Positions 8,501 through 42,073 of a stretch of 64,000 bases of DNA are shown here, in pieces (the first letter of the stretch is position 1; every line of letters starts with the position of its first letter). Source of the stretch: Trypanosoma brucei (taxonomy: Eukaryota); NCBI GenBank assembly GCA_000002445.1, contig AE017150.2, positions 992,001 through 1,056,000 on the forward strand, read 5' to 3'. Both the position numbers and the translations under genes were made by a program. The notes under the pieces were generated by a model. It ran no database searches. It was given only the letters and a program-made list of their open reading frames with translations, and had not been told where the DNA came from.

Positions 8501-8505
8501 CGTAC

Positions 8506-16514: not shown

Positions 16515-19500
16515 ATGATGAGAAAGAACTTGAACTCAAACGACGTCAGCCAGCCGCATTCTACTACAACATTGGACACAAACCCGGCATCGTACGGTAC
16601 GGTGCGTAACCCCCTGCATTCAGTGGTTGGGCCTACGGGTTACGGAGCACAACCACCCATATCGTCTCCAGCGACTTGGGTGAACAACCATTCGGCAGCC
16701 TTTGCCGCCCAGGGCCTGGGACCACACTGTGGAGCCCCCGGCGGTAGACCCTTCCCAGTGGTGCGTGGTTCAACGAATCGCGGAGATTCATATACAGAGC
16801 TTCAATGCCCAGTGGCAGGGTCAGGGCCAACCAACCCGTATGGGAATCGAACCGCGATCGACAAACTTCCTGGCTTGGAGGGCGGCCGATTTGATTGTGG
16901 AGGAGCCGGTCAGCGGCGCGGCCCATTACTCGGGGTATCGGGGGACCTCTATGGCGTGACAGGAATCAGTAATTCCACATCCAGAGGAAACGATCGACAC
17001 AACGGATCCATGTATGGCACGAACCCCACGTACAGCAAGACCTCGAGAACGGGTTCCATGTATGGCATGGGTTCCATGTATGGCAGAACATCGAGAATAG
17101 GTTCCATGTATGGCATGGGTTCCATGTATGGCAGAACATCAAGAACAGGTTCCATGTATGGCATGGGTTCCATGTATGGCAGAACATCGAGAATAGGTTC
17201 CATGTATGGCAGAACATCGAGAATAGGTTCCATGTATGGCAGAACATCAGGAACAGGTTCCATGTATGGGATGGGCTCAATTTATGGCATGGGTTCCATG
17301 TATGGCAGAACATCAAGAACAGGTTCCATGTATGGTCCGCGGATGGAATATGGCCCGATATACGGCGTGGGAGGGCCCATGGGTTCCATGTACGGTCCGC
17401 AGATGGGATACGGCCCGATATACGGTGTGGGAGGGCCCACGGGTTCCATGTACGGTCCGCAGATGGGATACGGCCCGATATACTGTGTGGGGCCCATGTA
17501 CGGCCGACCATCGAGGACAGATTCCGTGTACGGTCCGCAGATGGGACACGGCCCGATGTACTGTGTGGGAGGGCTGCTCTACAACAAAGCATTTCAGGAG
17601 GGTGACCCAGGCCGAGGCCCCACCGTACCTAAATCCGCGCCGTGCAACTCCAGCACTCCTTCCGCAGGAGTTACAACAAAGCCTGACGCGGAACCGGACA
17701 GGGAAGAGAAGGAGCCACGCGTTACTGGCGGAAAGAAGCCTACCACTTTCACCAACAAAGGACCCGCTGCCGAGACCGCCAAGAAACCCTGCGACCTGGA
17801 TTCTGGAAACGGGAAAGTAAAACACTCTCCTGTTGCTCAGGTTCCGCCTGACAACAGCGTTCGCACACTAATGGTGGTGAGCAGTGAGGCAGGACCGCAA
17901 GTAACAATAAAAGAGGAGGAGCGGAAGGTGGGCGTGGCGAGCAGTGGCGAGGAGGTCGTTTACTACGAAGGTGACGAGGTCGTGCACGGGGATGAGATCA
18001 CTGTGGAAAAGTCTGCACTTCTACAAATGATCGTCCAGCAGGTGGAACTGGGCCACAACACCGCTCTCATTTTGTCCGACAGTACACCGCAGCAGACTCT
18101 CTCTGCGTGCGTCACTACATCCGTAATGAAATCCATATTGGCGGCACTCAGGAAGGGTGAGACGGAAAATGGAACCAAATACGAGGTTTTGGCGACTGCA
18201 GCGGATGTGCCAACGATCGCGACCGCCAGAGATCTTCTGGCCGTGGAGAGCGAGGCAGTGAAAATTGCTCGATATGGCTCCAATCCCATGTTGGGTGCGT
18301 GCCTGATGGACCTGCAGGAGACAGTGCTACGGGACGATGCTGATGTCGATGTGTTTGTACAAGAGGCACTGAAAAAGTCATCGGGCACTGCGGCATTGGG
18401 TGTTATGCATGCGACGTTGAAGCAGATCAGAAAAACCAGCAGCGCTGCACCTACGGTGTACGTCTCCTCTTTCGTATGCCTGTTCGTGAAGGATGGGGTC
18501 GAACACCTCCAAGATCTTCTTGACATGAATGGGAAGGTTGTGCCTCTCCCACTTGCGAAGAGTGTTTTGGGCGGAGGCAGCTGTGTGGTTGCCGTGGTTG
18601 GTGCATCAGGTAAGGACGTGGCAGTGGACGCGAAGATCCTGAGCAACACCGCTGCGCTGCGGGGGGTAAAAAACACACCGCCACGGAGTGGTAACGTCGC
18701 CCGTTTTGTTGAGTTTGCGGAGACCCAGTTCACGGAATGTAAAGCTGCCATTGAACGTTCGAAGGAAGCGGCGGAGCGAGAGCGCCACGAGCGGACGCTT
18801 CGGAGGTTGGAGATCATGCTCTCGGACGCGCGGAAGCTGCTGTCGGACCCTGAGGAGACGCGGGCAAAAGTGTATCCACCAAGCCGAGAGTCAGTGAAGA
18901 ACGGCTCTGTCGAGAACGATGGCGGGAATGTGAGAAATGGTGCCTCCATAGAGGATGACAGACCCAGCGCCGCCACGTTAGCACCAGCTCCCGCGTCTGC
19001 TGATTCTCTGACCGAGCCAAAGGAGCAGGAGGTGATTGGGGCTCCTGCCCCAGCACACACCACAGAACCGTGGGAAAAGACCGCCAAAATCATTGTAACT
19101 GCGGGGTCGGGGCCCTCGAACGGCACCGCTGAGGTTGTTGCAGGAGGCGAGAAGAAAACTGACGAAGTTGATGAATATATCCAACGCACCGGCGTAAGAC
19201 CTGTGGATTCCGTTATTGCAAAGCGTATGGAGGGTATTCTTACCCAAGGATACAACGTAGCCCTCTTGTCTGCGGAGATGGTGCCTGACGAAGTTACAGG
19301 GGATCAGGTGACATGGAGTCTCGTGAAGGCGATCCTGAAGGGTGCACTAAGCAAAAAGGATGGCGTAACAAATGAGTGTACCCTGCAGATGAGCATCCTC
19401 AGAGGTGACAAAGTCGTGCTGGACCTGCTTGGATCGTCAGAAAAGCGACAGCTTGTTGTCGCAAGGTCTCCAATATTTGGTGTGACGGTACAGGGAGCTA

Positions 19501-21083
19501 CAACAAAGGTGGTGGGGAGTGCGGTACAAGTGGAACCTGTGCTCGAGGCCGCTTTGATGGAGGCGAAAGATGCCTTTAAGGACAGTGGATATATTGTCTT
19601 CACGGCAGTGCTGAAGCAGGTAACCGCCGCTGATGTAAGCGTTTCGTCATTATTTGTCGTGAGCGCTCCCGACATGCAGCCGTTCGTGGATGCGCTGGAG
19701 AAAAAGGAGACGCATCCGCATGCATTGTTCGCGCACGCACTCCTGGGTCCGTGTTCGTGTGCCCTACTCGTCAGCTATCGGGATGTGGATGACAATGTAC
19801 TTAAGGCTCTTGACGCGCACCGTGAAATAACGCTGAAGAACAACAAGCAACCGGGTGGAAGCGTCAGAAAGTTTGTTGGCGTGGTGGAGCAGTCCATAAC
19901 GGCTGCTGAAGAGAAACTAAAGAGTGTGGATGATGCAAAGGAGAGGGAGCGACATGAGCAAGTCTTGCGCGACAAGAAACAGGCTCTGCACGACGCACAA
20001 AAACTTCTGGAAAAGCCCAACGAAACACAGCCCGTCGCGTACGTTCCGTCGATATCCCAGGAGTCCGGAGGGGCCGATTCCACTGTTCGCGTGGTCGCAG
20101 TCCTCACCGATAAACGTGATGGAAAGAAGCGCAATGTTATTGCCAAGGACAACGGGTTCACGATCAAAACTTCTGTGGAGGAAACGGAGTTCCCAGCTGA
20201 TGAGGTGGTGAGGCGCATAGGTCAGGCAGCGAAAATCCGTTCATCTTCGGTCGATTTTCTCATTGATCACTTTGTAAAGGGGTACAACGTCGCCCTCCTC
20301 ACGGCCGATGTCGATGGTTTCTCGACAGGAGAGAACCTGTTGGAACACACGGTCCGCAGCGTCTTCACGAAGAAAAATGCGGACGGAGAACTGTTTGTTG
20401 TGCTTGCTTCTATCAAGGCTGATTGCTGCTCAGCGAAGGATCTGCAACGCGATGGCGCTACGTACGACCAACTGCAGTGCGCTTCTTCACCACTGTTCGG
20501 GCCCTGTGTTGCTGATGCGAAGTTTGAACTTGCGACAACTCCGGATACGCTGCTGCGGAAAGTGAGGTCCGCCATTCAGGTATGCGAGGCAGACAAATCT
20601 ACGCTTTTGTGTCTTTTTGTTTACAAGGAGCGGAAGCCCGCGGATGGTGACGTCTTCCTGTCTTCATTTTTCTTTTTCCTAGCCGGGAGTAGAGTGGATA
20701 TTTACACTCAAGCTCTGGAGAAGCGTCAGAAGGAACGGGGTCTGTTCCAGTATGCGCTTGGTGGTCCATGCCTCACTGCCTTCGCCCTCGGTCTCTCGAC
20801 GAGTAACAGCGATGTTGAAACAGCCACAGCCTTCGTTAGGCTGGCAAAAAAAGTTCGCGGGAGTAAAATCGGCACCATCCGCACTGGTGGTATACAACGC
20901 TTTGTGGCCTTCTCGACAAAGGCCCTTGAACAACTACGCGTCTTGCAGGAGAAGGCACCGGAGAGTGACAGGGGGCGACTCAGAGAGAGCAGTACGAACG
21001 TGGAAAAGGTGCTTGCTGACGCAGAGGAACTCTTGCGCAACCCAGAAGGTCGTGCACCACCACTCTACAAGCAAGAGCGATAA
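16515..21083 (+). CDS. Pseudokinesin-like protein (1522 aa) with N-terminal Y/G/M-rich tandem repeats and three degenerate kinesin-motor-like modules
   Basis: ORF track 16392..21083 starts at TTG; the first in-frame ATG is at 16515. Module motifs are GHNTALILSDS / GYNVALLSAEMVPDEVTG / GYNVALLTADVDGF and VLGGGSCVVAVVG / ALLGPCSCALLVSY / ALGGPCLTAFALGLS. Each module is followed by an ERERHE coiled coil and LLSDPEETRAKVY / LLEKPNETQPVAY / LLRNPEGRAPPLY. Confidence 0.6.
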   Translation: MMRKNLNSNDVSQPHSTTTLDTNPASYGTVRNPLHSVVGPTGYGAQPPISSPATWVNNHSAAFAAQGLGPHCGAPGGRPFPVVRGSTNRGDSYTELQCPVAGSGPTNPYGNRTAIDKLPGLEGGRFDCGGAGQRRGPLLGVSGDLYGVTGISNSTSRGNDRHNGSMYGTNPTYSKTSRTGSMYGMGSMYGRTSRIGSMYGMGSMYGRTSRTGSMYGMGSMYGRTSRIGSMYGRTSRIGSMYGRTSGTGSMYGMGSIYGMGSMYGRTSRTGSMYGPRMEYGPIYGVGGPMGSMYGPQMGYGPIYGVGGPTGSMYGPQMGYGPIYCVGPMYGRPSRTDSVYGPQMGHGPMYCVGGLLYNKAFQEGDPGRGPTVPKSAPCNSSTPSAGVTTKPDAEPDREEKEPRVTGGKKPTTFTNKGPAAETAKKPCDLDSGNGKVKHSPVAQVPPDNSVRTLMVVSSEAGPQVTIKEEERKVGVASSGEEVVYYEGDEVVHGDEITVEKSALLQMIVQQVELGHNTALILSDSTPQQTLSACVTTSVMKSILAALRKGETENGTKYEVLATAADVPTIATARDLLAVESEAVKIARYGSNPMLGACLMDLQETVLRDDADVDVFVQEALKKSSGTAALGVMHATLKQIRKTSSAAPTVYVSSFVCLFVKDGVEHLQDLLDMNGKVVPLPLAKSVLGGGSCVVAVVGASGKDVAVDAKILSNTAALRGVKNTPPRSGNVARFVEFAETQFTECKAAIERSKEAAERERHERTLRRLEIMLSDARKLLSDPEETRAKVYPPSRESVKNGSVENDGGNVRNGASIEDDRPSAATLAPAPASADSLTEPKEQEVIGAPAPAHTTEPWEKTAKIIVTAGSGPSNGTAEVVAGGEKKTDEVDEYIQRTGVRPVDSVIAKRMEGILTQGYNVALLSAEMVPDEVTGDQVTWSLVKAILKGALSKKDGVTNECTLQMSILRGDKVVLDLLGSSEKRQLVVARSPIFGVTVQGATTKVVGSAVQVEPVLEAALMEAKDAFKDSGYIVFTAVLKQVTAADVSVSSLFVVSAPDMQPFVDALEKKETHPHALFAHALLGPCSCALLVSYRDVDDNVLKALDAHREITLKNNKQPGGSVRKFVGVVEQSITAAEEKLKSVDDAKERERHEQVLRDKKQALHDAQKLLEKPNETQPVAYVPSISQESGGADSTVRVVAVLTDKRDGKKRNVIAKDNGFTIKTSVEETEFPADEVVRRIGQAAKIRSSSVDFLIDHFVKGYNVALLTADVDGFSTGENLLEHTVRSVFTKKNADGELFVVLASIKADCCSAKDLQRDGATYDQLQCASSPLFGPCVADAKFELATTPDTLLRKVRSAIQVCEADKSTLLCLFVYKERKPADGDVFLSSFFFFLAGSRVDIYTQALEKRQKERGLFQYALGGPCLTAFALGLSTSNSDVETATAFVRLAKKVRGSKIGTIRTGGIQRFVAFSTKALEQLRVLQEKAPESDRGRLRESSTNVEKVLADAEELLRNPEGRAPPLYKQER
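17005..17585 (+). repeat. Intragenic tandem repeats: 33/51-nt units (GSMYG[MGSMYG]RTSR[IT]G) then 60-nt units (GSMYGPQMGYGPIYGVGGPT)
   Basis: ggttccatgtatggcatgggttccatgtatggcagaacatcgagaataggt repeats directly. Overlapping alternate-frame and antisense ORFs (16949..17263-, 16966..17592-, 17236..17820+) are repeat shadows. Confidence 0.85.
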
Positions 21084-23114
21084 TCTTCATGCGTGTGGGT
21101 TAGGAAGCATATTATCATTGTACACGACTGGACACGCTTTTCTGGGGGTGGCATCCGTTGACCCAGCAGAAAAAGTGGTGTCTGTCAATTGCATCGTTAG
21201 AAAGTATGTTTGTACTTGCGCTATTATTATTATTATTATTTTGTGATTAGTACTAATTATCCTGAAGTGTGTAAAGAAAGGCTATTAAATTTCAGAGGAC
21301 ACCAATTCTCGATACTGTGCAGAAGTGCGAGTCGTGCTGAAATCTGCACTTGTTGGTGTGACGAAAGTAGTGGTGCCTGTTGAGCGGCGTTACACTCCGT
21401 TCAGACGCATCGCCAACCTACTTTTTCCTTTCTGTTCGTCACGTATGTTTTTCCACCTTTCCTTTTTCTTTGCACGTGGGGGGAGCGGATTAAACACGTG
21501 TCAATATTAAAATAACTCCATGAATGAAGCGGTGAGGTTGGGGGTTGTATCCGTGCGTCTGTGAGGGGTGTAATCAAAAGTGTCACAAGACTCTTTTCCC
21601 ACTGGTCTACTGCATTTGGCAGAATAATTCTTGTTTCTAACAAAGTAGGCAGATGCGATCAAAGATCAGCCCTCTGTCCGCTTTAGTTATTTGTTACTTT
21701 TTCTCTTTGTGTTTCATTTATCGCTTTGTTATTTTTATTCTCCTGCGGAGGCTCCTCCTCATGTGTCACGTCACATTGATTCTTTTCGTGAGGGTCGAAG
21801 CGGACGCGGCAGGCAGGTTGGGCGCAAGCCCCTCATCCTTTCGTCTGAGCAGCACCATGCGACTGTTTAATATGAAACAGTAAGTGATGAAAACGACGAA
21901 GAAGTTCCACCGAGTATGACAATTGTAGCAGCAGTCCTTCCCAATACCGAGTTTTATTTTTCACGGAATTTCGCGTCCGTTGTTTTACCAGTTATTTTAT
22001 TATTCCTCCCTCTGCTGTACTGTACATTCCCTGCTGTTTTTTTTTCCTTACTTCATTATCCTCTTTCTTTTTGCCCTGCAATATGTGTAGACAGTGGGTC
22101 TGCCGTCGGCATGCTGATGAGAGACCCGCTCTGCACTCGTATTATTTGTTTATTTTTTCGTTGGGAGTTACACAATTATCCTCAGTGTGTTGTTTTTGAT
22201 TATTTGTTTTTACATCCCCGTGGTAGTGTTGGTGATCCATTGGGGTGCATCCTGCACGCCTGACGGATGTGTATGTTTTCCACTCCATTACGCGCCCTTC
22301 GCTTCGAAGCTGGGCAAAGTGACTATGTTTCCCTCTTCCTTCCTCTACCACTCCTTCACCACGGCAGTCCCGCAGCTGCAATTCAAAGGCTCACGCTAGT
22401 CGATTACAGATCAGAGGACGCTCCGTAATGCTTCTTATGCAAAACTGAGTCCTTCGCAGGTCAACACCTGGCTGACTTGCAAATGCGATGTTTTGCTGGT
22501 GTGCAGTTGCATCTGCGCTAGTCACCGTGTTATCCCTGTGCCCAAACTGCGTGTGTGAACGGTAAAGAATCATGTTGGCAGGGAAACAAACATAGTAGTG
22601 CAGGGGCAGTGCGGTCCGAGGGATGTGTGAGTACTTGTTAATCTGTCCTCGCTCCCACAACTGTATAAATGTTCCTTCTTATCCGTCGAAGAGGTGTGTG
22701 GATAAGCGATTAGGGGGGGGGTGTGGAAGGAAATGTTTATGTTAAGTGGTACTTTCTCATCTTGGGCATCGTCTGCCTGTCGTTCCTCCCTTCCTATAAA
22801 CCCCCTCCGCCTGCTCGTAGTTGATATTGTGTACCTCTTACATGAGCATTGTTATCATGTGTTGCCCGTCGTCTCATCCCTGTTTTATGCTAGTTAGGTT
22901 GCTAACCTGAGGAAAGCACTGTTGTTACACCGCCGCCACCACCACTGCATACATTCAGGGAGCCTACATTAGAGGCGAACCTGCGCGTAGTAAGAGCGGA
23001 AAGCGAGTGGTCAAACAAGTGAAGATAATATACCTGACTGAAAGGCACTGTAACTGCAGAAGTTGGAAAAAGGGGCGGGACTGTGCGCAACAACAGCACC
23101 GTACGTGTGCTCCG

Positions 23115-23759
23115 ATGCTTCCGCACTCTCAGCCGCTGGTGCTCCCAATGGAACCCTCCAACTGGGCAGTGATGCCTCCGACGGGGGTGGAAATGCCCAT
23201 GGAGCCCGGAACGTTTGAAGATATCTCGACAGCGGGTTGGATAGGCCCTCGCCGGAGGTCGTTCTGCGGACCCCAGACGGAGGAAGAGTGGGAAGACCTG
23301 ATGATTCACCGCAGCTCCTTAAGACGTGAGAGTGGCCAAGGCACCGGAGTCGGGCTATCCGGGTCGGGCTGCCTTCTGGGAACAGATGATCCTGACCGTG
23401 ACGTTCTGTGTGAGTATTACGGTGACATGGCAAACCGAGACGAGAAGGTGCTCAGTTGTGGCCTGCGCGGTCAAGAAGGCCGAAGGGTATTGGGAAATAA
23501 ACCACTGCGGCAACGGCCCAATGGTCCAATGCGCGAGCGAACCAACTACGGATCACTGGCTAGTCGCCGTCAGCGGGTAATGGAGGAAGGTGGGGTGTGG
23601 GGCGACGTCGAGGTGTGCTGCGTCCCAGTCGAGCCGTGGCACCCAATGGACATGGTGTGCCTGGGAGAAGAAAGGCCCGAAGATGTGTGCGTGCTGCGGC
23701 AGACGGACACAGAGTTATATGGCACTGGGCGGGCCTTCGCGACCGATGGGAAGCCATAA
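23115..23759 (+). CDS. Hypothetical small protein (214 aa from first ATG), GC-rich, in the 4.4 kb interval between paralogues 2 and 3
   Basis: ORF 23007..23759 starts at GTG; the first ATG is at 23115. The region is covered by several overlapping antisense ORFs, the usual signature of a GC3-rich sense gene. No recognisable domains. Confidence 0.3.
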   Translation: MLPHSQPLVLPMEPSNWAVMPPTGVEMPMEPGTFEDISTAGWIGPRRRSFCGPQTEEEWEDLMIHRSSLRRESGQGTGVGLSGSGCLLGTDDPDRDVLCEYYGDMANRDEKVLSCGLRGQEGRRVLGNKPLRQRPNGPMRERTNYGSLASRRQRVMEEGGVWGDVEVCCVPVEPWHPMDMVCLGEERPEDVCVLRQTDTELYGTGRAFATDGKP

Positions 23760-25504: not shown

Positions 25505-27799
25505 ATGTCCACGGTACAGGCAGCCGCCGCCGCACCAACAGGATCGATCCTTCAGTGCAGAAGTTCAGCACCGAAGTCGAAGATGGGAGAGAATGAGGAA
25601 AAACGTGGTGGCGCGAGCGAAGGAACTACACACACACAGAACCTTGTAACCGTTGACACTGCTCAGACCTCCCAACCATCCGCCACTCGACCACCAGCCC
25701 CCACGAGCGGCTTGGGTCAGGTGATCCCGATCTCACCACCGAATGGTCAATTGGGCAGCCGCAACACCGTACCACCTCAAAGACAGGGGTTGTTCCAGGG
25801 ACAGGGAGTCATGGGAAACATGCAGGAGCCTGCCGCAGGAGGGGGTGCCTATTGGGGGACAATGGGCGGGTATACGTATGGTGTCGCGCCGACGGGGTCT
25901 GCATCTAACGCATTTTATCCATCAGCAAGAAATGGAGGCTGTGTCTTCCCACCGCTGCAGGGGAGGATGGCCGGCTACCCCCCAGCTGTTCCGCCGCCGC
26001 CGAGTTTGTTTCAAGGGCAGTTTCCCTCCGGGGGCAGAGGGATTGTCGCCACTGGTTGTGGGGCACGGAGTGTGTGTGGATACGCTCTCGACGGGTTTGC
26101 GCGTGGCGGACGCGTGCGTCAACATACCACGGGAACGAGCGCACATGAGGGGGCAGTGTGTGAAAGTGTGCACGGACCTGCTCTGGGTGACGTGTCCAAC
26201 CCCCTCCCTTACTCAGTGTATGGGGAGGGTCATGCTTTTCCGTCGTTGCCAGGGAGGCTTGCTGGGCACTTGCCTCAACGGAGGAACTCATTCCAGCAGC
26301 AAGGGTCATTCCATAGCCAAAGGGAGCTCGGTGACCTGCATGCATCCGCCGCGGGAGAAAGTATCTATGGTGGATGTGGTTACGCCCTCAGTTTTCGTTG
26401 CTTTGTTCCCGGAACCTCAGACACGGGAGTATGTGGCTCAGCGGTGCATGATTCTTCTTATGGGAACCGTAATGGTATCTCACAGATGGGGAGCATATAT
26501 GGCAACGGAGTGGGTCGTGTGCCATCACCATTGAGGACCAGTTTGTGCCCCGTCATCGCAACCATCAAGGACCACGTGCCGCTGCAGAGAAGTGGACTGC
26601 GTGGTGGGAATGTTGTAGCCGTCGGGGCGGCCAAATGTGGTGGTGAGGGCCGGTCTGCGGATGAGCTGAAACCTGTGCTGGCTTCCCCTGGGAGATCCCT
26701 TGCTTCCCAGAGTGAGTGTTCCCCTGCCGGTGATGACTCGAGTGCACAGACCCTTGTACTCGAAAACTACAACATTCACTCGCTCGTCATTCTCGATAAG
26801 GATGAGGGACCCTCAGATAAGGTAGTTGTGACTGTGAAGGACCCTCGGACGGTGGTCTTCAGACGGAGCGATGGGGGAGAAGAGGAGCATGTTAACGATG
26901 AGTGCCTTGAGCGTAGCGAGGCGTCGGCATATGTGAACTCTGTGTTACTCAACGACCTCCGACTGAACTGGATAGCTGGCCGTACCTCTGCACTGCTTGT
27001 GGGGGCTGGGAGGAACTGTGGAGATACATCGGTGACTTTTGCGGGTGATTTTCTCCAAAGGTGCCTTGAGAGTGTGGAAGGCGCCAAGGAGAAGTGCAAG
27101 TATTTCGACGTAACTATAACGCTGGGTATGATGGAATCCTCTGACCGCATTCTTGATCTCCTCGACACTGAGAAGAAAGGCTACGAAAGGGTGCAGCTTG
27201 CATCCAATCCCGTGTACGGGCCGTGTTTGCTTGGGATGAAAACGAAGAAGGCAACCTCCTCTAAGGAGTGTATGGAGGTGTTTAACAGTGCTATGCAACT
27301 CGTTGATAATCCAAAGCACCTCATCGTCGGTTTTTTCGTCCTGAAACAACTGAAGAAAACTGCCAACGGTGGGGATGTATACCTCTCTTCGTTATGCATT
27401 GGGCTCGCTAAGGAAGAGGTCTCGCGGTTTGCCGCGTTGAAGGAGAAGGACACGTCCGAGCCACACCGGCTGTTCCGATACGCGATCGGTGGCGGCAGTG
27501 TTACAGTTTCCACCCTGATTCTCTCTCAATGTGACACGGGCGCTAGCGACAGTCTCGACGTCGAACGCAGGATGCGGGAAGTGAAAAACACTCCACCGCG
27601 GATCGGTAGTGTGCTTCGGTGTGTGGAATCAGCGAAAAAGGAGATAAACAGACAGCAGGAGAAGATGAAGGATATGGACAGCACCGGGAAGGAGCCCACG
27701 GCGAGACTGGTAAGCCGTATGGAGTCGATAGTAAGGGATGCGGAGGAGATGCTGGCTAATCCGATTACCACAGCGCCCAAGGGATACCTCATTGTTTAA
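25505..27799 (+). CDS. Pseudokinesin-like protein (764 aa): Q/G/P-rich low-complexity N-terminus plus a single degenerate kinesin-motor-like module; third member of the tandem family
   Basis: ATG at 25505. YFDVTITLGMMESSDRILDLLD has the kinesin f.v.vSylEIYnE.i.DLL shape. NPKHLIVGFFVLKQ stands in place of SSRSHai. LFRYAIGGGSVTVSTLILSQCD resembles LLQDSLGGN.KT.MIA.ISP. KNTPPRIGSVLRCVE follows, and the C-terminus is MLANPITTAPKGYLIV. Confidence 0.55.
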   Translation: MSTVQAAAAAPTGSILQCRSSAPKSKMGENEEKRGGASEGTTHTQNLVTVDTAQTSQPSATRPPAPTSGLGQVIPISPPNGQLGSRNTVPPQRQGLFQGQGVMGNMQEPAAGGGAYWGTMGGYTYGVAPTGSASNAFYPSARNGGCVFPPLQGRMAGYPPAVPPPPSLFQGQFPSGGRGIVATGCGARSVCGYALDGFARGGRVRQHTTGTSAHEGAVCESVHGPALGDVSNPLPYSVYGEGHAFPSLPGRLAGHLPQRRNSFQQQGSFHSQRELGDLHASAAGESIYGGCGYALSFRCFVPGTSDTGVCGSAVHDSSYGNRNGISQMGSIYGNGVGRVPSPLRTSLCPVIATIKDHVPLQRSGLRGGNVVAVGAAKCGGEGRSADELKPVLASPGRSLASQSECSPAGDDSSAQTLVLENYNIHSLVILDKDEGPSDKVVVTVKDPRTVVFRRSDGGEEEHVNDECLERSEASAYVNSVLLNDLRLNWIAGRTSALLVGAGRNCGDTSVTFAGDFLQRCLESVEGAKEKCKYFDVTITLGMMESSDRILDLLDTEKKGYERVQLASNPVYGPCLLGMKTKKATSSKECMEVFNSAMQLVDNPKHLIVGFFVLKQLKKTANGGDVYLSSLCIGLAKEEVSRFAALKEKDTSEPHRLFRYAIGGGSVTVSTLILSQCDTGASDSLDVERRMREVKNTPPRIGSVLRCVESAKKEINRQQEKMKDMDSTGKEPTARLVSRMESIVRDAEEMLANPITTAPKGYLIV

Positions 27800-29718
27800 G
27801 TTTCACTCCACCCGCATTCATAGGCGGCAAATGAGAACAGGGTTGAGGCCCAAACAAGTGTTAGTAGGTGGATGTGCGTATGTGTTCGTTCGTTGCTGCA
27901 TTAAGCAAAGCGAACTAGTGTGCACGCGCGGAGGCGAAATCGTAGGAGTCGCGAGAGTTAGATTCACCACAATCTTTGAACTTTCTGGTGACGCAAACCA
28001 GTGTCCACAGTAGGAACTATTTCGGTGCTGTCGTGACCAACTGCGCTGTGCACGCGAGTCCCATTTTCTTGGGTGTTGATAACTTTTGCGCGCTTGCCGT
28101 ATAAGGAGGTAGCGCACGCAAACAAGAAAGAATGAAAACGAAGGTCCAAATTCCAGGGTCGGTAGGCATTATTTATGTTTTCAAAGGGGTTTATGGGTGT
28201 ATACCGAATACCAAACTACCGTTCGCGGCGCTCAGGCCCTCGCTGCGGTCCTCACAACAGCACCCACGGGGGATCTGTGTGTAGACCCGTGTGGTGCCGA
28301 AACGAATGAACGAAATGTCGTCTTCCTCATATATATATATATATATATTACCTTGCAAAGCTGGGTTTGCTATATTCTGTTCTATTTTTAGTTCATGCTT
28401 GAGTATGTTAACTGCCCTTCCCCGTAGGACTTTGTTTTGTTTTGTATTTGCCTATAATGGAGGGTCCAATCGTCCAGTGCTTGGGGATGGAAGAGGATAT
28501 TTTATTTTGTACAAACTTTCTTCACAGTCATTCCTTTATGCACAAGGACTCATAGTAGCTGCTGCAGTCAGATGGCTGGCACCATTGTGGGCGCTAAAGC
28601 CCTTCATCGTTATTCCATTAATTAATCTATTTTTTTTATTTTTGTTTCTCCTCTCTGCCTGATGAGGCTCAATTGTGCCGGTACATCTTTCAATTTGTTG
28701 TTTGTCCCAATCATAACCCACGCGTGGGGTACCGTCATTCGCGTGTTTGGGAAAAAATGCAGTGTTTTATTCGACCATGTCAGACTCGCTGGGATTGAGC
28801 CGATGCTAGCGTATACTGGAGCTCCTGTAATGTGACCTCGCGACTCTCTTCCCTTTCCTCATCTTAACGGTAGACAAGGTCCTGTCAAAGCTGGCAGGCT
28901 CACGAAGGCAAGGTGTGGGTTCCGTTGGTTACATGCGCATAAGCAACTTTGTAAATTTTGTATTTTTTGCAGTGCGCTTGTGTGCGAAGCTTTCACATGT
29001 ATGTACGTTTAGTCACTTCTTCGTCGGTTTGCACTAGGTAGTAATTGGTGCAGATCTCTAGCTTTGCTGGGTGTGGAGGTGTTTCTACGAAAGGAATGTG
29101 TTAAAACAATTTTACAATTAATTTCTCCTTTGTTATTTAAAGGAAAGGAACTACTCTATTTTTCACGTGCAGATGCAGTGATCACAATCGAAATGTAATG
29201 TTGTAGGGGGAAAGGAGGGGCTTCCTTCAAAAAGTGAGCAATCGGGGTGTTGGTCTTGTCATCACTTGAATGAAGATTGGCCGCTGTCCTTATTTATTGT
29301 CGGTAACGAGGAGATTGTGTGGCACCCTTTTTTGCAACATATATTTACGTATTTGAGCTGTTTCTAGTGGCGTATGAGCGAGGTGAGTAAGAGTTTTCCT
29401 GAACGGGAGATACGGGAATGGAAATTGTGAGGTTGATGCTTGTTATCTTCTGTCCTCGTAGTTGTTCGCAATTGGTTCTCTTTAAGGCGGTAACTGTGTA
29501 TGTGTCCGTTTGTTTGTCTGACGTCTTTCTGACTCTTCCACTGCCGTAGGAAAGGAACGGGAAATATATACTTTAGTAAATAGATATCACTCTTTAACCG
29601 GTAAGGCGTCGGCTGTATCACTGTACGTCCCCAAAGGCACAGTTACTGGGGAAGGAAATAAGCACCACTCTTGAGAGGAAGAGGCCCATCAACAGCAAAT
29701 ATTTGTGGTACTGCGACC

Positions 29719-30501
29719 ATGGCGGTACTGAGCGAAGATGTCCTCTTATACCTCAAGGAGAAAAACATCCCCATGCTTTTTGAGCAAATCGTTCAGAATA
29801 TCATTTCCGATGCCCCGGAAAGGCCAATGAGTTACATCGGAGATCTGATGCGCCGCGGCATCCCTTTGCAAATATTCATTGCTGGTCCCGCCGGCAGCGG
29901 CAAGCGCACACAATGCAAAAACATCGCGGACCGGCTCGGTGTGGTGTTAATCTCTTCCGGCCAGGTTCTTACTCGCGGCGTGGAAAGTGGCAGCGAGACA
30001 AGCCAACTGGCACATTCCTATGTTTCACGTGGTGAGCGGGTGCCGGACACGCTGGTGTCAATGATAATGAAAGACCGATTGTCGCAAAGCGACGCGCGTG
30101 AGAAAGGTTGGTTGGTCGAGGGCTACCCACGCAACGCACAACAGGCACAGGCCGTGGAGGAGTGTGGTGTGATACCACAGGTCTTTATACTGTTGGATCT
30201 GCCTGAAGATTTGTCCTTCAGGCGCCTTGAGCATCGCCGCTACGACCCCGCCACCAATAAAGAGTACCACATGCTGGATAATCCACCACCGGCGGAGGAT
30301 GTCGCGTTATGCGAGCGGCTCGTGCAGAGGGATGCAGACTTTCATGAGTCAATCGCGAAGCGCCTGGCACAGTACTACGAAAGCATTGAGGGCGTTAAGA
30401 AGCACCTCGGGGCCGTTATTGAAGTAGTGGATGCCAGAAAATCTGTTGAGGATGTTGAGCGGGACATACTTGCCGCGGTGGAGAAGCACCGCTTTCGCTA
30501 A
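29719..30501 (+). CDS. Adenylate kinase (long-LID type) with a ~45-aa N-terminal DPY-30/RIIa-like extension
   Basis: ORF 29671..30501 starts at TTG; the first ATG is at 29719. P-loop IFIAGPAGSGKRTQC; GYPRNAQQAQA; LID segment RRLEHRRYDPATNKEYHMLDNPP. The N-terminal extension VLLYLKEKNIPMLFEQIVQNIISDAPERPMSYIGDLM matches the DPY-30/RIIa docking-helix pattern. Confidence 0.85.
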   Translation: MAVLSEDVLLYLKEKNIPMLFEQIVQNIISDAPERPMSYIGDLMRRGIPLQIFIAGPAGSGKRTQCKNIADRLGVVLISSGQVLTRGVESGSETSQLAHSYVSRGERVPDTLVSMIMKDRLSQSDAREKGWLVEGYPRNAQQAQAVEECGVIPQVFILLDLPEDLSFRRLEHRRYDPATNKEYHMLDNPPPAEDVALCERLVQRDADFHESIAKRLAQYYESIEGVKKHLGAVIEVVDARKSVEDVERDILAAVEKHRFR

Positions 30502-33500: not shown

Positions 33501-36500
33501 GTGTTAACTGAGTATTGGGCCGCGAAAGAAAATCAGTTTGTACGATGCCCTCTCCCTCACACTCCCTGATCCTGCACTGGCACTCCTTTCAACTCCGTTT
33601 TCACAATGGTCACGGCTCCTTCGAATACAACGTCGGGCGAAGCGCTGGTGGCATGCCACTGGGCAGCCAGTACTTCTCCCATACGAGGAACACTGCGCAT
33701 CCCGAAACTCCTTCAACCCTTTTCCATCGGTGCTCGTTTTTGTATTGTGCACAGCAGTGCCGCTTAGTCGGGATTTCGCTTCATACCCTGTACTTCCACC
33801 ACTTAAGGCTCACAACAGTGCCGACAGTCAACGCAACCGTCCTTAAGGGAGCCGAGGGGAAACAAAAGGAAATACAAAATTCGGGCCGTCCACGCTCGCG
33901 TACACAGAGGTTCAAAACGCCCACGAAAACGCATACCTCCATATATTTATATTCATCCTCCGGAGACCAAAGAGGTGTACAGACCCCGATAAAATAGTTC
34001 ACCCGGCCTTTAATGCAGGTAAAGCACAACAAAAGTAAAGATAAAACGGTTTACGGCACCGGTTGCGGCGATTCCAAACTCATTTAATAATCGTGCTGAA
34101 CAAAATAAAAGCTTACCGCTGTGGCGACTGTCTCTATTGGCGCAACCTTTGTCGACCGAAGCGCTTTCCTGAGCGGAGGTGCTTCCACCGGAAACGGTAT
34201 TTATGGTGGGAAGCCTCTTTTAATTCTGCCAAAGGAGAAAAACCATTATGACGTCAAGGGCTTAGACAAACAAATACTCTGCAAGTGTGTCCGGAGTGTA
34301 ATGTAGGAGTGGATCACTCAACACACCACCATCGAACGGAGGAGAGGGAATCCCCGCATTACACCCCCTCCAGCGTTACGGAAGGAATATACGCTGATTC
34401 CCCAACACCATTAAGCCAGTGTAAGTGACCGGGCGATTGACCATCCAAGCAGAAATTTATGAGTCCTCTCAAAACTTGCGGCTCTTTTGCCCCCACCCCC
34501 TCCCCAATATACACAAGCACCTAAAAAATCCCTAACCATGTTCTGAAGGCCCTTACTATCTCCGACGCCTGACTTGACAGACGCGGCGTCTCAGAGATAG
34601 CAAACAGGCGAGGAAATGTGACATAAAGAAAGGTACTGCGAGCCCCTTCTGGGGCCGATGGGTATCCTTTGAGGGAGAGGATCGAATTCGTTTTCGCATT
34701 ACCCTGGTTTCATCTTCTCGGCATGCACCGCTACGTGCATGTAGTCGTTTTCGCCGAATGCCTTGTTCGTTCCAAGAGGCAAGCAAAAGATTTGACCGTT
34801 TACACGTTTTAAGCCTTACCAAAATTAGGGATAGATGTGCGGCGCGTCGTTCAGCGCCGTATAATAGTAATTCACCAGTTGAGTTAGCGAACCATATTGC
34901 TTTACAATTATTTTATGCCAAAATTTTTTTCTTGCCGTGCCGCTTCCGCGGTGCATCACAGCGCCCAAATAGAGGGACACTCCTTTTGGTAGTTAAGATA
35001 GCTGTGCTCCCCAAGAAAAATACCTACAACGGGTTGCGACAGAACTTTTCCCCAGACAAGCGGAGAAAACTACTGCACTTAATAAGGGGGCACGAAGGGA
35101 GCGCCTATGCTGAGAATCTGAACGAAATTTGGAAAGGTAATGTGGAGGGCAGGCCCAATAGCCGCCGCCAAAGAAAACTATTTTCGATGCGCGTCAAGCG
35201 GCAAGGGAACAACTTAGGTGTTGATGAGCGCAGCGTAAAAAAAAATTGTGCGATGGCTGTCTGTGGCTGTTGGAAAGGGGGCCAATTGGGGAGGTCAATG
35301 GCCAAGACGCTTCTTTGTGTTGCGCCTGCGGTAAATCGCCTGTCGCCTTAACGGCACTGTGCGGCACCTCACTGTGCTCTCGGCGGCGGGTGATGTGTCT
35401 GGAGGACGAATCCTGGGTGCATCTCCCGAAAATGTAAACATACAAGTGCGCTCGCCCTCTGTCAGTACCTATGGCTTCTCAGAGGGAACGGCGGGCGGAT
35501 AACCGCTCCTTCCCCCCGTTAACAAATGGTTTGAACTCTCCCTGTAATACTTTGCCCGTAGTTTCAACACAAAACAAGAAAAAAACCGGTTCTTTGCAAG
35601 TCTAAAAAGGAGTCTGTGGTCCAAACACCGCAGGGTAAAGACGTCGCTCTAGGGGATCTGTTGGCGTTGCGGTCCCATAGTTTTTGACAGGCCTTCGCTT
35701 TCCCACCTCTAGCGAGCGGTGCTTGCGATGACATCTTGTGAGATGAGTCTTGCTAGGAGACCCTCAGGAAACTGAGCAACTTTTGGCAGTAAGTTTTGGA
35801 GTCCAAAACTGTTTGGTGGCTTGAGGAGCCAGGTGCCACACCCACCACATCACGCGGTTTGACAGCGGATCGTCTTCCAAGATATGCCCCAGAAGCACAT
35901 AATTCGAGGCGCGACCGTTCTTTCTACACTTTTTGAGATGTTTAAGCTACTGACGGGTTGCTATATTCTATACCTTTCCCCTCAGAAGTATGGAGACCTC
36001 CTGATGTCGGCATGTTAAGCTATTGCGTCGCCGATGTCTCTCCCGTTGCGGTGCATCGCGGTGTTCCGGCCCCCGATAAGTTTGCGGGGCTCGACTTACG
36101 AATTCGTTTTTGCGGATTGGAGCCTTTGCCCCCTCTGTATAAGCGGTTGCGTAATCACACGGGTTGTCGAAAGGAGGAGCGGCATTGTATTTTTTTTCCT
36201 GTTCTTTGAAGTGGTGCTCACCCGTTGTTGGGCCCGTAAAGGGGTTGGCGAAGCGGTGGAATACCCCGGCGTCTTCCTGCAGTTACATTTCCCTCAGCCC
36301 GGATTCGTGTGGGACTCGTGGGTGCCCCTTTTAGCGACGGCCGGGTAGTCTGTCACCCGGTTTTTTTTACCCGAGCTCTCGGTGTTCCCTTTCCAATATG
36401 TTGCTGTCGCTGGCGTTTCGTTTGCTTCACTCCACTTTTTTCCCCCGGCACCGTGTCGTAAGGGCCCGTCCCGGCTTCCGCCTATTTGGCAATCAAGCCC

Positions 36501-39744: not shown

Positions 39745-39967
39745 AAAGAGGGTATATATACGTTTTTGATACAAGTATACTTATAATTAGATTCATTAAA
39801 TTTAATGCCTTTATAATAGATAGTTCATCGTCACATTCACATCGTGACGTTTAATTTTTAGGTGGGTATAAAGCGGTTTGGTACATGCAAGTAGGTTTTA
39901 AGTCGACGTAGAATACATCCGCCGATTTTAAAAAAAAATTATTGTAGGCTGCGTGGAAAGAAAAAAA

Positions 39968-41629
39968 ATGGAGGAAACAAAGTTATGCCCATTTTGGGTT
40001 AGCAGAGTAAGCGGTTTAGCTACCGAGTCGCCGTCAGCCCTGACCCTATCCGATCTGCTACATTGTAATATTGAGGATCCAAGTGAGGTGTGGACGCATG
40101 TTGTGTTGGCAAATTACTTGATTGATTTGGAGTGGGTCTTCGATATGGCTACTTGCCTGCAACTCTCAAATTGTCATGTTATGATCGTTTCCGGTGAAGA
40201 GGGGTTAGCTGAGAGATATGCGGCGTCGCCTCTCGCTGGGTTACTCGGTAAGGAAAGAGTAGAAATAATTAAACCAAAACTTCCGTTACCATTCGGAGTT
40301 CATCATGGAAAATTGATATTGTGCGTAAATTCGAAAGGCGTAAGAATATCGGTGCTTACCGCAAATTTTATCGAGAGTGACTGGGGTAAAAAAACTCAAG
40401 GGATATACGTACAGGACTTTCCTCGTTTGGTTACATCATCTGCGAGTAGTAACTCGATGGGATCGTTGCAGGCCCTACGCAGATGCCGGGGAACAAGATT
40501 CAAAGAGGAAATAAAGCGGTACCTCAGCTGTATCGGTGCTATTTCTTCCACAACTGGGACGAATTGCATTCCACTATCTTTGCTAGATGAAGTTGATTAC
40601 AGCGGTGCGTGTGTGGAACTTGTTTCTTCTGTTCCGGGATGCCATCGCAACTCGGACGCCTATCGTTTCGGAATGGGCAGACTGCAGGAGGTCCTACGCG
40701 CCATGCAAATAAGCTCGCCGTCTGGTGAAAATTCTCCCACACTTGTATGGCAGTTTAGCTCCCAAGGGACGCTAACTAGCAATTTCCTAAGGTCTTTGGA
40801 GCGTGTTATGACTATCAGCACCGATAATACACCACTTCCAGATACGAAATCTCCAACGGTCCGGATCATTTATCCAACAGAAGCTGAAGTGAAGGGTTCG
40901 TTTGAGGGGTGGCATGGGGGACTATCGCTACCTGTTAGGCTGCGTTGCTGCCATCCCTACGTTAATGAAAGGCTGTATCGTTGGGGTCAGCGTCCGTACG
41001 CTGAGGGTGCTGACCGAGGGAGAAATAGGGCGATGCCCCATATAAAAACTTACATGCGCTTGACAGAAAATGGTGACGGACTGAAGTGGTTCATGCTAAC
41101 GAGTGCTAATCTGTCGCGGGCCGCTTGGGGGGAATGGCAAAAAGGCGGAACCCAGATCTTGATACGGTCCTATGAACTTGGGGTAGTGTATGGTACCGAT
41201 TCGTTTATTAACCCTGCGGATGGCGGACTATTCAGCGCGACACCTTCAAAACCGATACCGGTTCCGTCATCCATTGGTGGCGACGGTCTAGTGAGAGTGA
41301 AGATAAAAACTCTACCATCTGAATCAGATCGGGACGAACCAACACTCTTCTTGCCTTACAATCCCCTTAATCCTCAACCTTACGTAAGCACACTTCAGAT
41401 GCAGCAAAGAGAGCATAGACACACCGGCCATAGCTGTGTTTCCCAACTCAGCAGCCTTGATGTGCCCTGGCTAGTCGATCTACCTCATCGTGGGAAGGAC
41501 TGCTTGGGTAAGGAATTTCGTGATGTGTTGGAAGGTAGCAACCGCCGCGGGGAAGAGCCTGACCCGTTGAGGTCTGGAGGGTGTTGTGTTGGTGCGTTGG
41601 GGGAGAAACGAACCAACAGGGATGCGTGA
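39968..41629 (+). CDS. TDP1: Tyrosyl-DNA phosphodiesterase 1 (PLD superfamily, two HKD motifs)
   Basis: ORF 39953..41629 starts at GTG; the first ATG is at 39968. FGVHHGKLILCVNSKGVRISVLTANFIESDWGKKTQGIYVQDFP and MPHIKTYMRLTENGDGLKWFMLTSANLSRAAWG closely match the two conserved HxK...N motif blocks of Tdp1. Confidence 0.85.
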   Translation: MEETKLCPFWVSRVSGLATESPSALTLSDLLHCNIEDPSEVWTHVVLANYLIDLEWVFDMATCLQLSNCHVMIVSGEEGLAERYAASPLAGLLGKERVEIIKPKLPLPFGVHHGKLILCVNSKGVRISVLTANFIESDWGKKTQGIYVQDFPRLVTSSASSNSMGSLQALRRCRGTRFKEEIKRYLSCIGAISSTTGTNCIPLSLLDEVDYSGACVELVSSVPGCHRNSDAYRFGMGRLQEVLRAMQISSPSGENSPTLVWQFSSQGTLTSNFLRSLERVMTISTDNTPLPDTKSPTVRIIYPTEAEVKGSFEGWHGGLSLPVRLRCCHPYVNERLYRWGQRPYAEGADRGRNRAMPHIKTYMRLTENGDGLKWFMLTSANLSRAAWGEWQKGGTQILIRSYELGVVYGTDSFINPADGGLFSATPSKPIPVPSSIGGDGLVRVKIKTLPSESDRDEPTLFLPYNPLNPQPYVSTLQMQQREHRHTGHSCVSQLSSLDVPWLVDLPHRGKDCLGKEFRDVLEGSNRRGEEPDPLRSGGCCVGALGEKRTNRDA

Positions 41630-42073
41630 GATTGCATCGTGTTTTTTCTAAGTTATATTTAATTTTTAGAATTTCAGTTAATATTTTGTTTCATGACTTT
41701 ACGTGTTTGGGCACCAAATTCTCTCTTTACAGTGACCTCTTCCTTTACTGTCTTCTTGTTGCTCATTGCAACAAGGCGCACTTCCGTTCCTGCCGCAACG
41801 TGAAAGGATTATACGACTGACTCTGCCCCTCATCGTAGATTTTAGTGTCGTTTACCACCGTTACGTGTTCTTTCATGCTTCTCTACTTAATGTTTCCATT
41901 TCAATAGTTGTTTGATAGCCCAGAAACCACAAAAGAGTAAAGGGTTGAGGTGCAAAAGTTGATTTCACTTTGGAGCCGCATTGTTGACAGAGGGTAATCC
42001 TTTCGTTTTTGCTGTTAAAGGTGGCGTGCGCGGCAAGCCAAGGCCTGTATACAGTTTTCTGGGGGATCTGGCA

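What the first reader, a model, noticed from the sequence alone, without database searches (positions are those of the whole stretch)
29719..29880. Adenylate kinase carries an N-terminal DPY-30/RIIa-like docking helix
The kinase core (P-loop at about residue 57) is preceded by VLLYLKEKNIPMLFEQIVQNIISDAPERPMSYIGDLM. This matches the hydrophobic periodicity and conserved Pro of DPY-30/RIIa dimerisation-docking domains. Such domains tether adenylate kinases to axonemal structures (radial spokes or central pair) in flagellated eukaryotes. The match predicts a flagellum-anchored ATP-regenerating isoform. Trypanosome ADK isoforms with N-terminal extensions are known to be flagellar.
Basis: partly seen in the sequence, partly recalled or inferred. 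Interest (0 to 1): 0.5.

Follow-up and report, generated by a model that had tools for sequence, protein, structure and literature searches.

The report
Docking domain on trypanosome flagellar adenylate kinase

Summary
Observation confirmed. Window 29719-30501 (+) encodes a 260-aa adenylate kinase. Residues 1-50 precede the P-loop (G55-K61) and contain the quoted peptide.

Identity: the protein is residue-for-residue T. b. brucei TREU927 XP_951719.1/Q586D5 on chromosome 2. That is TbADKA (Tb927.2.5660), a paraflagellar-rod (PFR) enzyme. Published work shows its ~55-aa N-terminal extension is translated and is necessary and sufficient for PFR localisation.

Fold: the extension belongs to the RIIa clan of docking/dimerisation (D/D) domains, in the RI-like "R1D2" subgroup rather than DPY-30 proper.
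- The single sequence gives no Pfam RIIa or Dpy-30 hit.
- Its best PDB match is the PKA RIalpha D/D domain (E 0.075).
- A profile of 52 homologous extensions hits AK8 (1e-12), FAP385, EFCAB10 and RIalpha (5.5e-7). DPY30 scores only 0.02-0.2.
- It has the R1D2 hallmarks: an N-flank helix with Y11-L12 and a P33-x-x-P36 loop.
- AlphaFold2 with an alignment (pLDDT 91.7) gives helices 6-14, 17-31 and 36-46.

Likely mechanism (inferred): the domain dimerises and docks on an amphipathic helix of a PFR protein, as AK8-EFCAB10 docks on RSPH3. PFC1 and PFC15 are candidate anchors.

Verdict: the reading is correct, the system is essentially known, and interest is low to moderate.

The parts
29719..30501 (+). 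Complete CDS of adenylate kinase TbADKA (260 aa plus stop).
   Evidence: ORF and sequence. Exact identity to T. b. brucei TREU927 XP_951719.1/Q586D5 on a 1.19-Mb contig. ADKA = Tb927.2.5660.
29719..29868 (+). N-terminal R1D2-type docking/dimerisation (D/D) domain, residues 1-50. This is the published 'N-terminal extension' and flagellar targeting signal.
   Evidence: The best PDB match of residues 1-54 is the PKA RIalpha D/D domain. Family profiles hit AK8, FAP385, EFCAB10 and RIalpha/beta. It scores 32.3 bits against a non-euglenozoan AK8 D/D profile, with 0 of 20,000 shuffles reaching that score.
29734..29760 (+). N-flanking helix (residues 6-14), with consecutive aromatic and hydrophobic residues Y11-L12.
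   Evidence: AF2 model helix H6-14. Y11 is >=90% conserved. This is an R1D2 hallmark according to Dahlin et al. 2021.
29767..29811 (+). D/D helix I (residues 17-31).
   Evidence: AF2 model helix H17-31, pLDDT about 83-92. It aligns with RIalpha NIQALLKDSIVQLCT.
29815..29826 (+). PxxP loop (P33-E-R-P36) between helices I and II.
   Evidence: P33 is invariant and P36 is >=90% conserved. The PERPM string is identical to RIalpha. The PxxP loop defines R1D2.
29824..29856 (+). D/D helix II (residues 36-46).
   Evidence: AF2 model helix H36-46. Aligned to RIalpha and AK8 helix II.
29866..30498 (+). Long-type adenylate kinase core with LID insertion (residues 50-260).
   Evidence: Pfam ADK 1.8e-28. 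Maize AK 1zak at 4.5e-42 by sequence. Foldseek against 1zak E 1e-18 over about 213 columns.
29881..29901 (+). P-loop GPAGSGK (residues 55-61).
   Evidence: Read directly from the sequence. Aligned to the P-loop of maize AK and AK8.
29659..29661 (+). In-frame TAA that closes the reading frame 60 nt upstream of the start codon.
   Evidence: No ATG in any frame between 29501 and 29718.

Best explanation
The gene is T. brucei ADKA, a catalytically intact long-type adenylate kinase. Its first ~50 residues form an R1D2 (PKA-RI-like) docking/dimerisation domain made of an N-flank helix, helix I, a PxxP loop and helix II.

Shown here: the sequence identity, the family membership and the predicted fold.
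Shown by others: the extension is part of the mature protein, it is necessary and sufficient for paraflagellar-rod localisation, and ADKA is lost from flagella when PFR2, PFC1 or PFC15 is depleted.
Inferred: the domain pairs with a second D/D protomer (another ADKA, ADKB, or an EFCAB10-like protein) into an X-type four-helix bundle. The groove of that bundle then clamps an amphipathic helix of a PFR scaffold protein. This would hold the enzyme along the flagellum so that 2 ADP <-> ATP + AMP runs next to the dynein ATPases. Mammalian AK8 works this way: its D/D domain dimerises with EFCAB10 and docks on RSPH3.
For: - Identity: the protein has exactly the sequence of XP_951719.1/Q586D5 on a 1.19-Mb contig, and the T. 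congolense orthologue is on chromosome 2. ADKA = Tb927.2.5660, with a 55-aa extension.
- D/D membership, PDB searches: the top PDB hit of residues 1-54 is the RIalpha D/D domain at E 0.075, aligned over residues 9-43 with an identical PERPM. A six-sequence Euglenozoa-only profile gives RIalpha 0.0069 and AK8 0.019 as its top hits out of 177,635 sequences. The 52-sequence profile gives AK8 1e-12, FAP385 1.2e-11, EFCAB10 2.5e-7, RIalpha 5.5e-7, RIbeta 7.5e-5 and flagellar enolase 1.6e-3.
- D/D membership, Pfam: homologous extensions match Tex55 and DUF5586 (38 of 52 each), Dpy-30 (26 of 52, best 5e-5) and RIIa (11 of 52).
- Non-circular test: 32.3 bits against a non-euglenozoan profile, with 0 of 20,000 shuffles reaching it.
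- R1D2 hallmarks are present.
- AF2 with an alignment gives pLDDT 91.7 and helices 6-14, 17-31 and 36-46, followed by the AK core.
- Mechanistic precedent: the AK8 D/D domain dimerises with EFCAB10 and docks on RSPH3, seen by cryo-EM and co-IP/pull-down.
- Function of the extension and dependence on PFC1 and PFC15.
- The kinase core is intact.
Against: - The single sequence gives no Pfam RIIa or Dpy-30 hit even at E<=10. Its only weak hits are Tex55 (0.15) and DUF5586 (0.24).
- The single-sequence PDB E-value of 0.075 is not significant on its own.
- Dimerisation and amphipathic-helix binding were not tested, and no T. brucei partner has been identified.
- The fold search matched only the kinase core, so the D/D fold rests on sequence profiles and the AF2 secondary structure.
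- Unlike AK8, this enzyme has one kinase domain and sits in the PFR, so the AK8 partners cannot simply be transferred to it.
- The primary papers (Pullen 2004, Ginger 2005) could not be read. Their content is quoted from later papers by the same group.
Confidence: 0.75

Rival explanations
1. The extension is specifically a DPY-30-type domain, like the C-terminal domain of AK7 or NME5, and docks as DPY-30 domains do on CFAP91- or ASH2L-like helices.
For: Half of the homologous extensions (26 of 52) give weak to moderate Pfam Dpy-30 hits, best 5.1e-5. NME5 scores 5.8e-5 and DPY30 proteins 0.02-0.2 against the family profile.
Against: RIalpha, RIbeta, EFCAB10, FAP385 and AK8 all score better than DPY30 proper. 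The single-sequence PDB search lists RIalpha and no DPY30 chain at E<=10. The PxxP loop and the aromatic-hydrophobic N-flank helix are the R1D2 signature.
Confidence: 0.08
2. The extension acts mainly as an import signal, an IFT or cargo-adaptor recognition motif, rather than as a retention or docking module. The resemblance to D/D domains would then be structural only.
For: A 2025 review lists it among flagellar targeting motifs in the context of IFT, with no fold or mechanism named. The extension alone suffices to bring a reporter into the flagellum.
Against: ADKA is lost from detergent-extracted flagella when PFR2, PFC1 or PFC15 is depleted, which means stable binding to a structure. The homologous AK8 domain is seen physically docked in the radial-spoke neck. 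Import and docking are not mutually exclusive.
Confidence: 0.1
3. ADKA is anchored like AK8 in the radial-spoke neck (axoneme), and its PFR dependence is indirect.
For: AK8 is the nearest solved relative over the full length (1.8e-55). The Chlamydomonas spoke-neck protein FAP385 matches the extension profile at 1.2e-11. AK8 and Ak8A/B are spoke components in mammals and Tetrahymena.
Against: Tagged ADKA decorates the PFR. ADKA and flagellar AK activity are lost in the PFR2 RNAi mutant, whose axoneme remains. ADKA also depends on the PFR proteins PFC1 and PFC15.
Confidence: 0.05
4. The extension is not translated, and the true start is a downstream Met (M19, M37 or M44). The T. congolense orthologue is annotated from the residue equivalent to M37.
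For: T. congolense P0003 is annotated from the residue that aligns with M37. In-frame ATGs exist at 29773, 29827 and 29848.
Against: 29719 is the first ATG after an in-frame stop, and no other upstream ATG occurs in 218 nt. T. vivax conserves residues 1-50 better than the core, with many synonymous changes. The domain is conserved from diplonemids to animals. Peptides from the extension were detected by MS/MS.
Confidence: 0.02

Closest known systems
TbADKA (Tb927.2.5660) and its paralogue TbADKB, the paraflagellar-rod adenylate kinases of T. brucei (Pullen et al. 2004; Portman et al. 2009)
   Same: It is this very gene. The protein sequence is identical to the TREU927 chromosome-2 protein. It has the ~55-aa N-terminal extension ahead of an intact AK core, and that extension is necessary and sufficient for PFR targeting.
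   Different: Nothing differs in the sequence. The papers I could read describe the extension as an unusual conserved targeting sequence and do not name its fold. The D/D assignment made here is the only addition.
Adenylate kinase 8 (AK8) of metazoa and other ciliated eukaryotes, and the Chlamydomonas radial-spoke-neck protein FAP385
   Same: An N-terminal R1D2 D/D domain sits directly in front of an adenylate kinase domain. AK8 is the best solved relative over the full length (1.8e-55), and the alignment runs into the extension from residue 16. The extension profile hits AK8 at 1e-12 and FAP385 at 1.2e-11. In AK8 the domain tethers the enzyme inside the flagellum.
   Different: AK8 has two tandem kinase domains (about 480 aa), while ADKA has one (260 aa). 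AK8 docks with EFCAB10 on RSPH3 in the radial-spoke neck, while ADKA is reported in the extra-axonemal PFR and depends on PFC1 and PFC15.
PKA regulatory subunit RIalpha/RIbeta D/D domain (PDB 2ezw, 3im3, 4f9k)
   Same: It is the best non-kinase match. It shares the layout of N-flank helix, helix I, PxxP loop and helix II, and the PERPM string is identical. It is the archetype that forms an X-type four-helix bundle binding an AKAP amphipathic helix.
   Different: The two RIalpha cysteines in the aligned region (in RECELY and QLCTARP) are replaced in ADKA. These are the inter-chain disulfide cysteines, which I state from my own knowledge. The cargo is an adenylate kinase rather than cAMP-binding domains. 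No AKAP partner is known.
DPY-30 domain kinases of cilia (AK7, NME5/RSP23)
   Same: They follow the same logic. A nucleotide-metabolising enzyme is fused to an RIIa-clan D/D module that docks on a spoke scaffold helix. They show weak profile similarity.
   Different: They belong to a different subgroup (DPY-30), and the domain is C-terminal in AK7 and NME5. Similarity scores are lower than for R1D2 proteins.

Membership tests
RIIa-clan D/D domain, R1D2 (PKA-RI-like) subgroup (Dahlin et al. 2021) | Helix I - loop - helix II core of about 45 residues | tested here: met
   AF2 with a 26-sequence alignment gives helices H17-31 and H36-46, with N-terminal pLDDT 83-92. This is a prediction, not a solved structure.
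RIIa-clan D/D domain, R1D2 (PKA-RI-like) subgroup (Dahlin et al. 2021) | Flanking N-terminal helix with consecutive aromatic and hydrophobic residues | tested here: met
   Helix H6-14 contains Y11-L12. Y11 is >=90% conserved. It aligns with Y-V of RIalpha.
RIIa-clan D/D domain, R1D2 (PKA-RI-like) subgroup (Dahlin et al. 2021) | PxxP motif in the inter-helix loop (R2D2 has Pxx[LIV]) | tested here: met
   P33-E-R-P36. P33 is invariant and P36 is >=90% conserved in 52 homologues.
RIIa-clan D/D domain, R1D2 (PKA-RI-like) subgroup (Dahlin et al. 2021) | Significant sequence or profile similarity to experimentally established D/D domains | tested here: met
   The family profile hits RIalpha at 5.5e-7, EFCAB10 at 2.5e-7 and RIbeta at 7.5e-5. 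The Euglenozoa-only profile hits RIalpha at 0.0069 as its top hit. The single sequence reaches only 0.075, though that is also the top hit.
RIIa-clan D/D domain, R1D2 (PKA-RI-like) subgroup (Dahlin et al. 2021) | Match of the window sequence itself to Pfam RIIa (PF02197) or Dpy-30 (PF05186) above the curated cut-off | tested here: not met
   Neither family is listed even at E<=10. The only weak hits are Tex55 (0.15) and DUF5586 (0.24). TEX55 is itself an R1D2 protein. Among homologous extensions, 26 of 52 match Dpy-30 and 11 of 52 match RIIa at E<=1.
RIIa-clan D/D domain, R1D2 (PKA-RI-like) subgroup (Dahlin et al. 2021) | Dimerises into an X-type antiparallel four-helix bundle | not testable with these tools
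   Only monomer prediction is available. This needs AF-multimer, SEC-MALS or a crystal structure.
RIIa-clan D/D domain, R1D2 (PKA-RI-like) subgroup (Dahlin et al. 2021) | Binds an amphipathic helix of an anchoring protein | not testable with these tools
   No T. brucei partner sequence could be fetched. PFC1 and PFC15 dependence is known only from the literature.
AK8-type adenylate kinases | N-terminal D/D domain homologous to that of AK8 | tested here: met
   32.3 bits against a profile of 46 non-euglenozoan AK8-type N-termini, with 0 of 20,000 shuffles reaching it. The AK8 alignment starts at residue 16.
AK8-type adenylate kinases | Two tandem adenylate kinase domains | tested here: not met
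   The protein is 260 aa with a single ADK domain at residues 54-226. AK8 matches it in two stretches because AK8 has two domains. It is therefore a single-domain relative, not an AK8 orthologue in architecture.
AK8-type adenylate kinases | Anchored in the radial-spoke neck through EFCAB10 and RSPH3 | not tested
   Published data place ADKA in the PFR.
Adenylate kinase (PF00406), long type | ADK domain above the Pfam cut-off, with P-loop, GYPR, RR-D and R-D-x-D motifs and a LID insertion | tested here: met
   100 bits against a cut-off of 26.8. The alignment to maize AK 1zak covers GPAGSGK, EGYPRN, HRRYDP and QRDAD. Foldseek against 1zak gives E 1e-18.
TbADKA (Tb927.2.5660) | Sequence identity with the T. 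brucei chromosome-2 adenylate kinase that carries a ~55-aa N-terminal extension | tested here: met
   Exact match to XP_951719.1/AAQ16024.1/Q586D5 on a 1,193,948-bp contig. The locus tag itself is not printed by any tool, so that last link is inferred.

The most novel reading that the evidence does not exclude
The 'flagellar targeting signal' of TbADKA/ADKB is a radial-spoke-type AK8 docking module that kinetoplastids have redeployed to the extra-axonemal paraflagellar rod. On this reading the PFR contains an unrecognised AKAP-like amphipathic-helix scaffold. The EF-hand protein PFC1 and/or the IQ protein PFC15 would play the roles that EFCAB10 (an EF-hand D/D partner) and RSPH3 (the helix donor) play for AK8. 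The trypanosome papers I could read do not state this, and it would give a structural mechanism for how enzymes are assembled onto the PFR.
Probability: 0.3. Interest if true: 0.45.

Novelty: already known. Interest (0 to 1): 0.22.

Why it matters
The finding connects two bodies of work. In 2004 the trypanosome field showed that this extension targets ADKA to the flagellum and noted homologues in human and worm kinases. In 2021-2025 the cilia field showed that the equivalent AK8 N-terminus is an RI-type D/D domain that heterodimerises with EFCAB10 and docks on RSPH3. Put together, a poorly understood 'targeting motif' (still listed that way in a 2025 review) becomes a defined docking module. 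That yields testable predictions: interface mutants, a D/D partner, and an amphipathic-helix anchor in the PFR. It does not reveal a new kind of system.

Tried and rejected
- Pfam scan of the single extension found no RIIa or Dpy-30 hit. It lacks sensitivity for a 50-aa divergent domain, so I replaced it with homologue profiles.
- Single-sequence AlphaFold2 was unusable, with pLDDT 40. I repeated it with an alignment.
- The Foldseek search of the whole model against the PDB aligned only the kinase core, about 213 columns. It gives no independent fold evidence for the D/D part, and the model cannot be trimmed with these tools.
- The word-indexed homologue search returned only 5 proteins. The exhaustive representative search supplied the family.
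- Pullen et al. 2004 and Ginger et al. 2005 are not held. Their results are cited second-hand.
- I looked for papers that link the trypanosome ADK extension to RIIa or D/D domains, or that give more detail on PFC1 and PFC15, and found none. The supplement of Dahlin et al. lists no trypanosomatid.
- The T. congolense locus, wanted to check the truncated annotation, is not on record.
- I rejected the downstream-start reading.
- I rejected DPY-30-proper membership because R1D2 proteins score higher and the PxxP loop is present.

Full report
**What is in the sequence.**
The window carries a 260-codon ORF on the + strand, from the ATG at 29719 to the stop at 30499-30501. The finding's coordinates, 29719-29880, are residues 1-54. 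The quoted peptide is residues 8-44, and the P-loop GPAGSGK is residues 55-61. Residues 54-226 match Pfam ADK at 1.8e-28, with 100 bits against a cut-off of 26.8. The core aligns with maize adenylate kinase 1zak at 4.5e-42, and the alignment includes the GYPR, RR-D and R-D-x-D motifs and a long LID insertion. A high-confidence AlphaFold2 model (pLDDT 91.7, pTM 0.83) superposes on solved adenylate kinases (Foldseek, 1zak E 1e-18).

**Is the extension really translated?**
- An in-frame TAA lies at 29659, 60 nt upstream of the start. No ATG occurs in any frame between 29501 and 29718.
- The T. vivax orthologue starts at the same Met and has no indel.
- It is more conserved over residues 1-50 (64%) than over the kinase core (55%).
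- In the extension, 21 codons differ only synonymously and 18 differ non-synonymously. That is the pattern of a protein under purifying selection.
- The literature reports MS/MS peptides from the extension.
The downstream-start objection is therefore rejected.

**Which gene it is.**
The protein has exactly the sequence of T. b. brucei TREU927 XP_951719.1/AAQ16024.1/Q586D5 (also T. equiperdum), on a 1,193,948-bp contig. The T. b. gambiense protein differs at one residue. The T. congolense orthologue is TCIL3000_2_1430, which places it on chromosome 2. The chromosome-2 adenylate kinase is Tb927.2.5660 = TbADKA.

Published work, quoted, shows the following:
- ADKA and ADKB carry ~55-aa N-terminal extensions.
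- The extensions are retained in the mature protein.
- Truncation abolishes paraflagellar-rod (PFR) localisation, and the extension is necessary and sufficient for it.
- Flagellar AK activity is lost when PFR2 is depleted.
- ADKA is lost when PFC1 (an EF-hand protein) or PFC15 (an IQ-motif protein) is depleted.
- Homologous N-terminal sequences were already noted in human and C. elegans putative adenylate kinases.

**What the extension is.**
Scanned alone, residues 1-54 give no Pfam RIIa or Dpy-30 hit even at E<=10. The only weak matches are Tex55 (0.15) and DUF5586 (0.24). TEX55 is itself classed as an RI-type D/D protein.

Against all PDB sequences, the top hit of residues 1-54 is the D/D domain of PKA RIalpha (2ezw). 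The E-value is 0.075, the alignment covers residues 9-43, and the PERPM string is identical. Over the full length, the best solved relative is AK8 (1.8e-55), and that alignment runs into the extension from residue 16.

An exhaustive search of 1.84 billion representatives returned many proteins with a homologous N-terminus in front of one or two AK domains. The named examples are from Trypanosoma melophagium, Phytomonas, the diplonemids Diplonema and Artemidia, a choanoflagellate, the orthonectid Intoshia (named AK8) and a chytrid. In an alignment of 52 such extensions, Pro33 is invariant and Tyr11 and Pro36 are >=90% conserved.

| Profile searched against PDB | Hits (E-value) |
|---|---|
| 52-sequence family profile | AK8 1e-12; Chlamydomonas spoke-neck FAP385 1.2e-11; EFCAB10 2.5e-7; PKA RIalpha 5.5e-7; NME5 5.8e-5; RIbeta 7.5e-5; flagellar enolase 1.6e-3; DPY30 proteins 0.02-0.2 |
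| 6-sequence Euglenozoa-only profile | RIalpha 0.0069 (first); AK8 0.019 (second) |

- As a non-circular test, a profile built from the 46 non-euglenozoan sequences scores the window's extension at 32.3 bits. None of 20,000 shuffles exceeded 14.3 bits.
- When every member of the 52-sequence alignment was scanned on its own against Pfam, 38 matched Tex55, 38 DUF5586, 26 Dpy-30 (best 5e-5) and 11 RIIa.
- The AlphaFold2 model places helices at 6-14, 17-31 and 36-46, immediately before the first strand of the kinase.
- Dahlin et al. 2021 define the R1D2 subgroup by an N-flanking helix with consecutive aromatic and hydrophobic residues and a PxxP inter-helix loop. Here these are Y11-L12 and P33-E-R-P36.

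The extension is therefore an RIIa-clan D/D domain of the RI-like (R1D2) subgroup, the same subgroup to which AK8 and AK5 were assigned. DPY-30 proper is only a distant relative.

**How it most likely works.**
- Shown here: identity, family membership and predicted fold.
- Shown by others: the function of the extension in PFR localisation and its dependence on PFR2, PFC1 and PFC15. In mammals, the AK8 D/D domain dimerises with the EF-hand protein EFCAB10, and the pair docks on the amphipathic helix of RSPH3 in the radial-spoke neck (cryo-EM; co-IP and GST pull-down).
- Inferred: ADKA's domain pairs with another D/D protomer and clamps an amphipathic helix of a PFR protein. This would fix an ADP-recycling enzyme along the flagellum.

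The parallel between EF-hand EFCAB10 and EF-hand PFC1 is suggestive but untested. I could not obtain the PFC1 or PFC15 sequences.

**Comparison with what is known, and novelty.**
This is the known gene TbADKA with its known targeting extension. The homologous AK8 domain is already classified and structurally resolved. ADKA differs from AK8 in having one kinase domain and in being reported in the PFR rather than on the spokes.

In the papers I could search, none names the fold of the trypanosome extension. A 2025 review still lists it simply as a 55-aa flagellar motif. The D/D assignment is thus a useful link between two literatures, but it is not a new kind of system. I could not check whether domain databases already annotate it.

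The corrections are these:
- The gene is the already characterised ADKA.
- The reported site is the PFR, not the spokes or central pair.
- The subtype is RI-like rather than DPY-30.
- It is a three-helix module, not a single helix.
- Single-sequence Pfam fails and homologue profiles are needed.

**Limits.**
- Dimerisation and helix binding were not tested.
- The fold search informed only on the kinase core.
- The primary 2004 and 2005 papers were unavailable.
- The link from protein accession to the locus tag Tb927.2.5660 is inferred from the chromosome, the contig size and the published description.

Noticed in passing
window 1-64000: All long ORFs that look like genes lie on the + strand, as expected for one trypanosomatid polycistronic unit. 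Pfam finds a weak kinesin-motor match in the 2076-aa ORF at 8458-14688, tyrosyl-DNA phosphodiesterase at 39953-41629 (9e-94), an FBPase-family enzyme at 54288-55355, and an SPT6-like protein (SH2_2 + YqgF) at 56153-60850.
   Followed up: partly
window 16392-21083, 23007-23759, 25505-27799, 34758-35351, 41981-51301: Four ORFs (1563, 250, 764 and 197 aa) have no Pfam match at E<=0.001. The 3106-aa ORF at 41981-51301 was not scanned. In T. vivax the gene just upstream of the ADKA orthologue is a 258-aa CHAP-domain protein. Whether the 250-aa window ORF is its counterpart was not checked.
   Followed up: no
P0003 (T. congolense TCIL3000_2_1430), aligned to window 29827 onward: The T. congolense orthologue is annotated as 224 aa starting at the Met equivalent to M37. 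It therefore lacks the N-flank helix and helix I of the D/D domain. This is either a mis-annotated start, an assembly gap, or a real loss of docking. The locus DNA is not on record.
   Followed up: partly
window 30097-30099 (codon 127): The window protein has Arg127 where the T. b. gambiense DAL972 protein has Cys. This is the only difference between them. The window sequence is identical to T. b. brucei TREU927 and T. equiperdum.
   Followed up: no
homologues P0074, P0084, P0079, P0086, P0128: Longer proteins of about 850-1060 aa with up to 4-6 matched adenylate-kinase stretches, including one from a chytrid, carry a related N-terminal D/D-like segment with a variant loop (for example P-x-x-H in P0084 and P0079). 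The D/D-AK fusion therefore exists in several architectures across flagellated eukaryotes.
   Followed up: no
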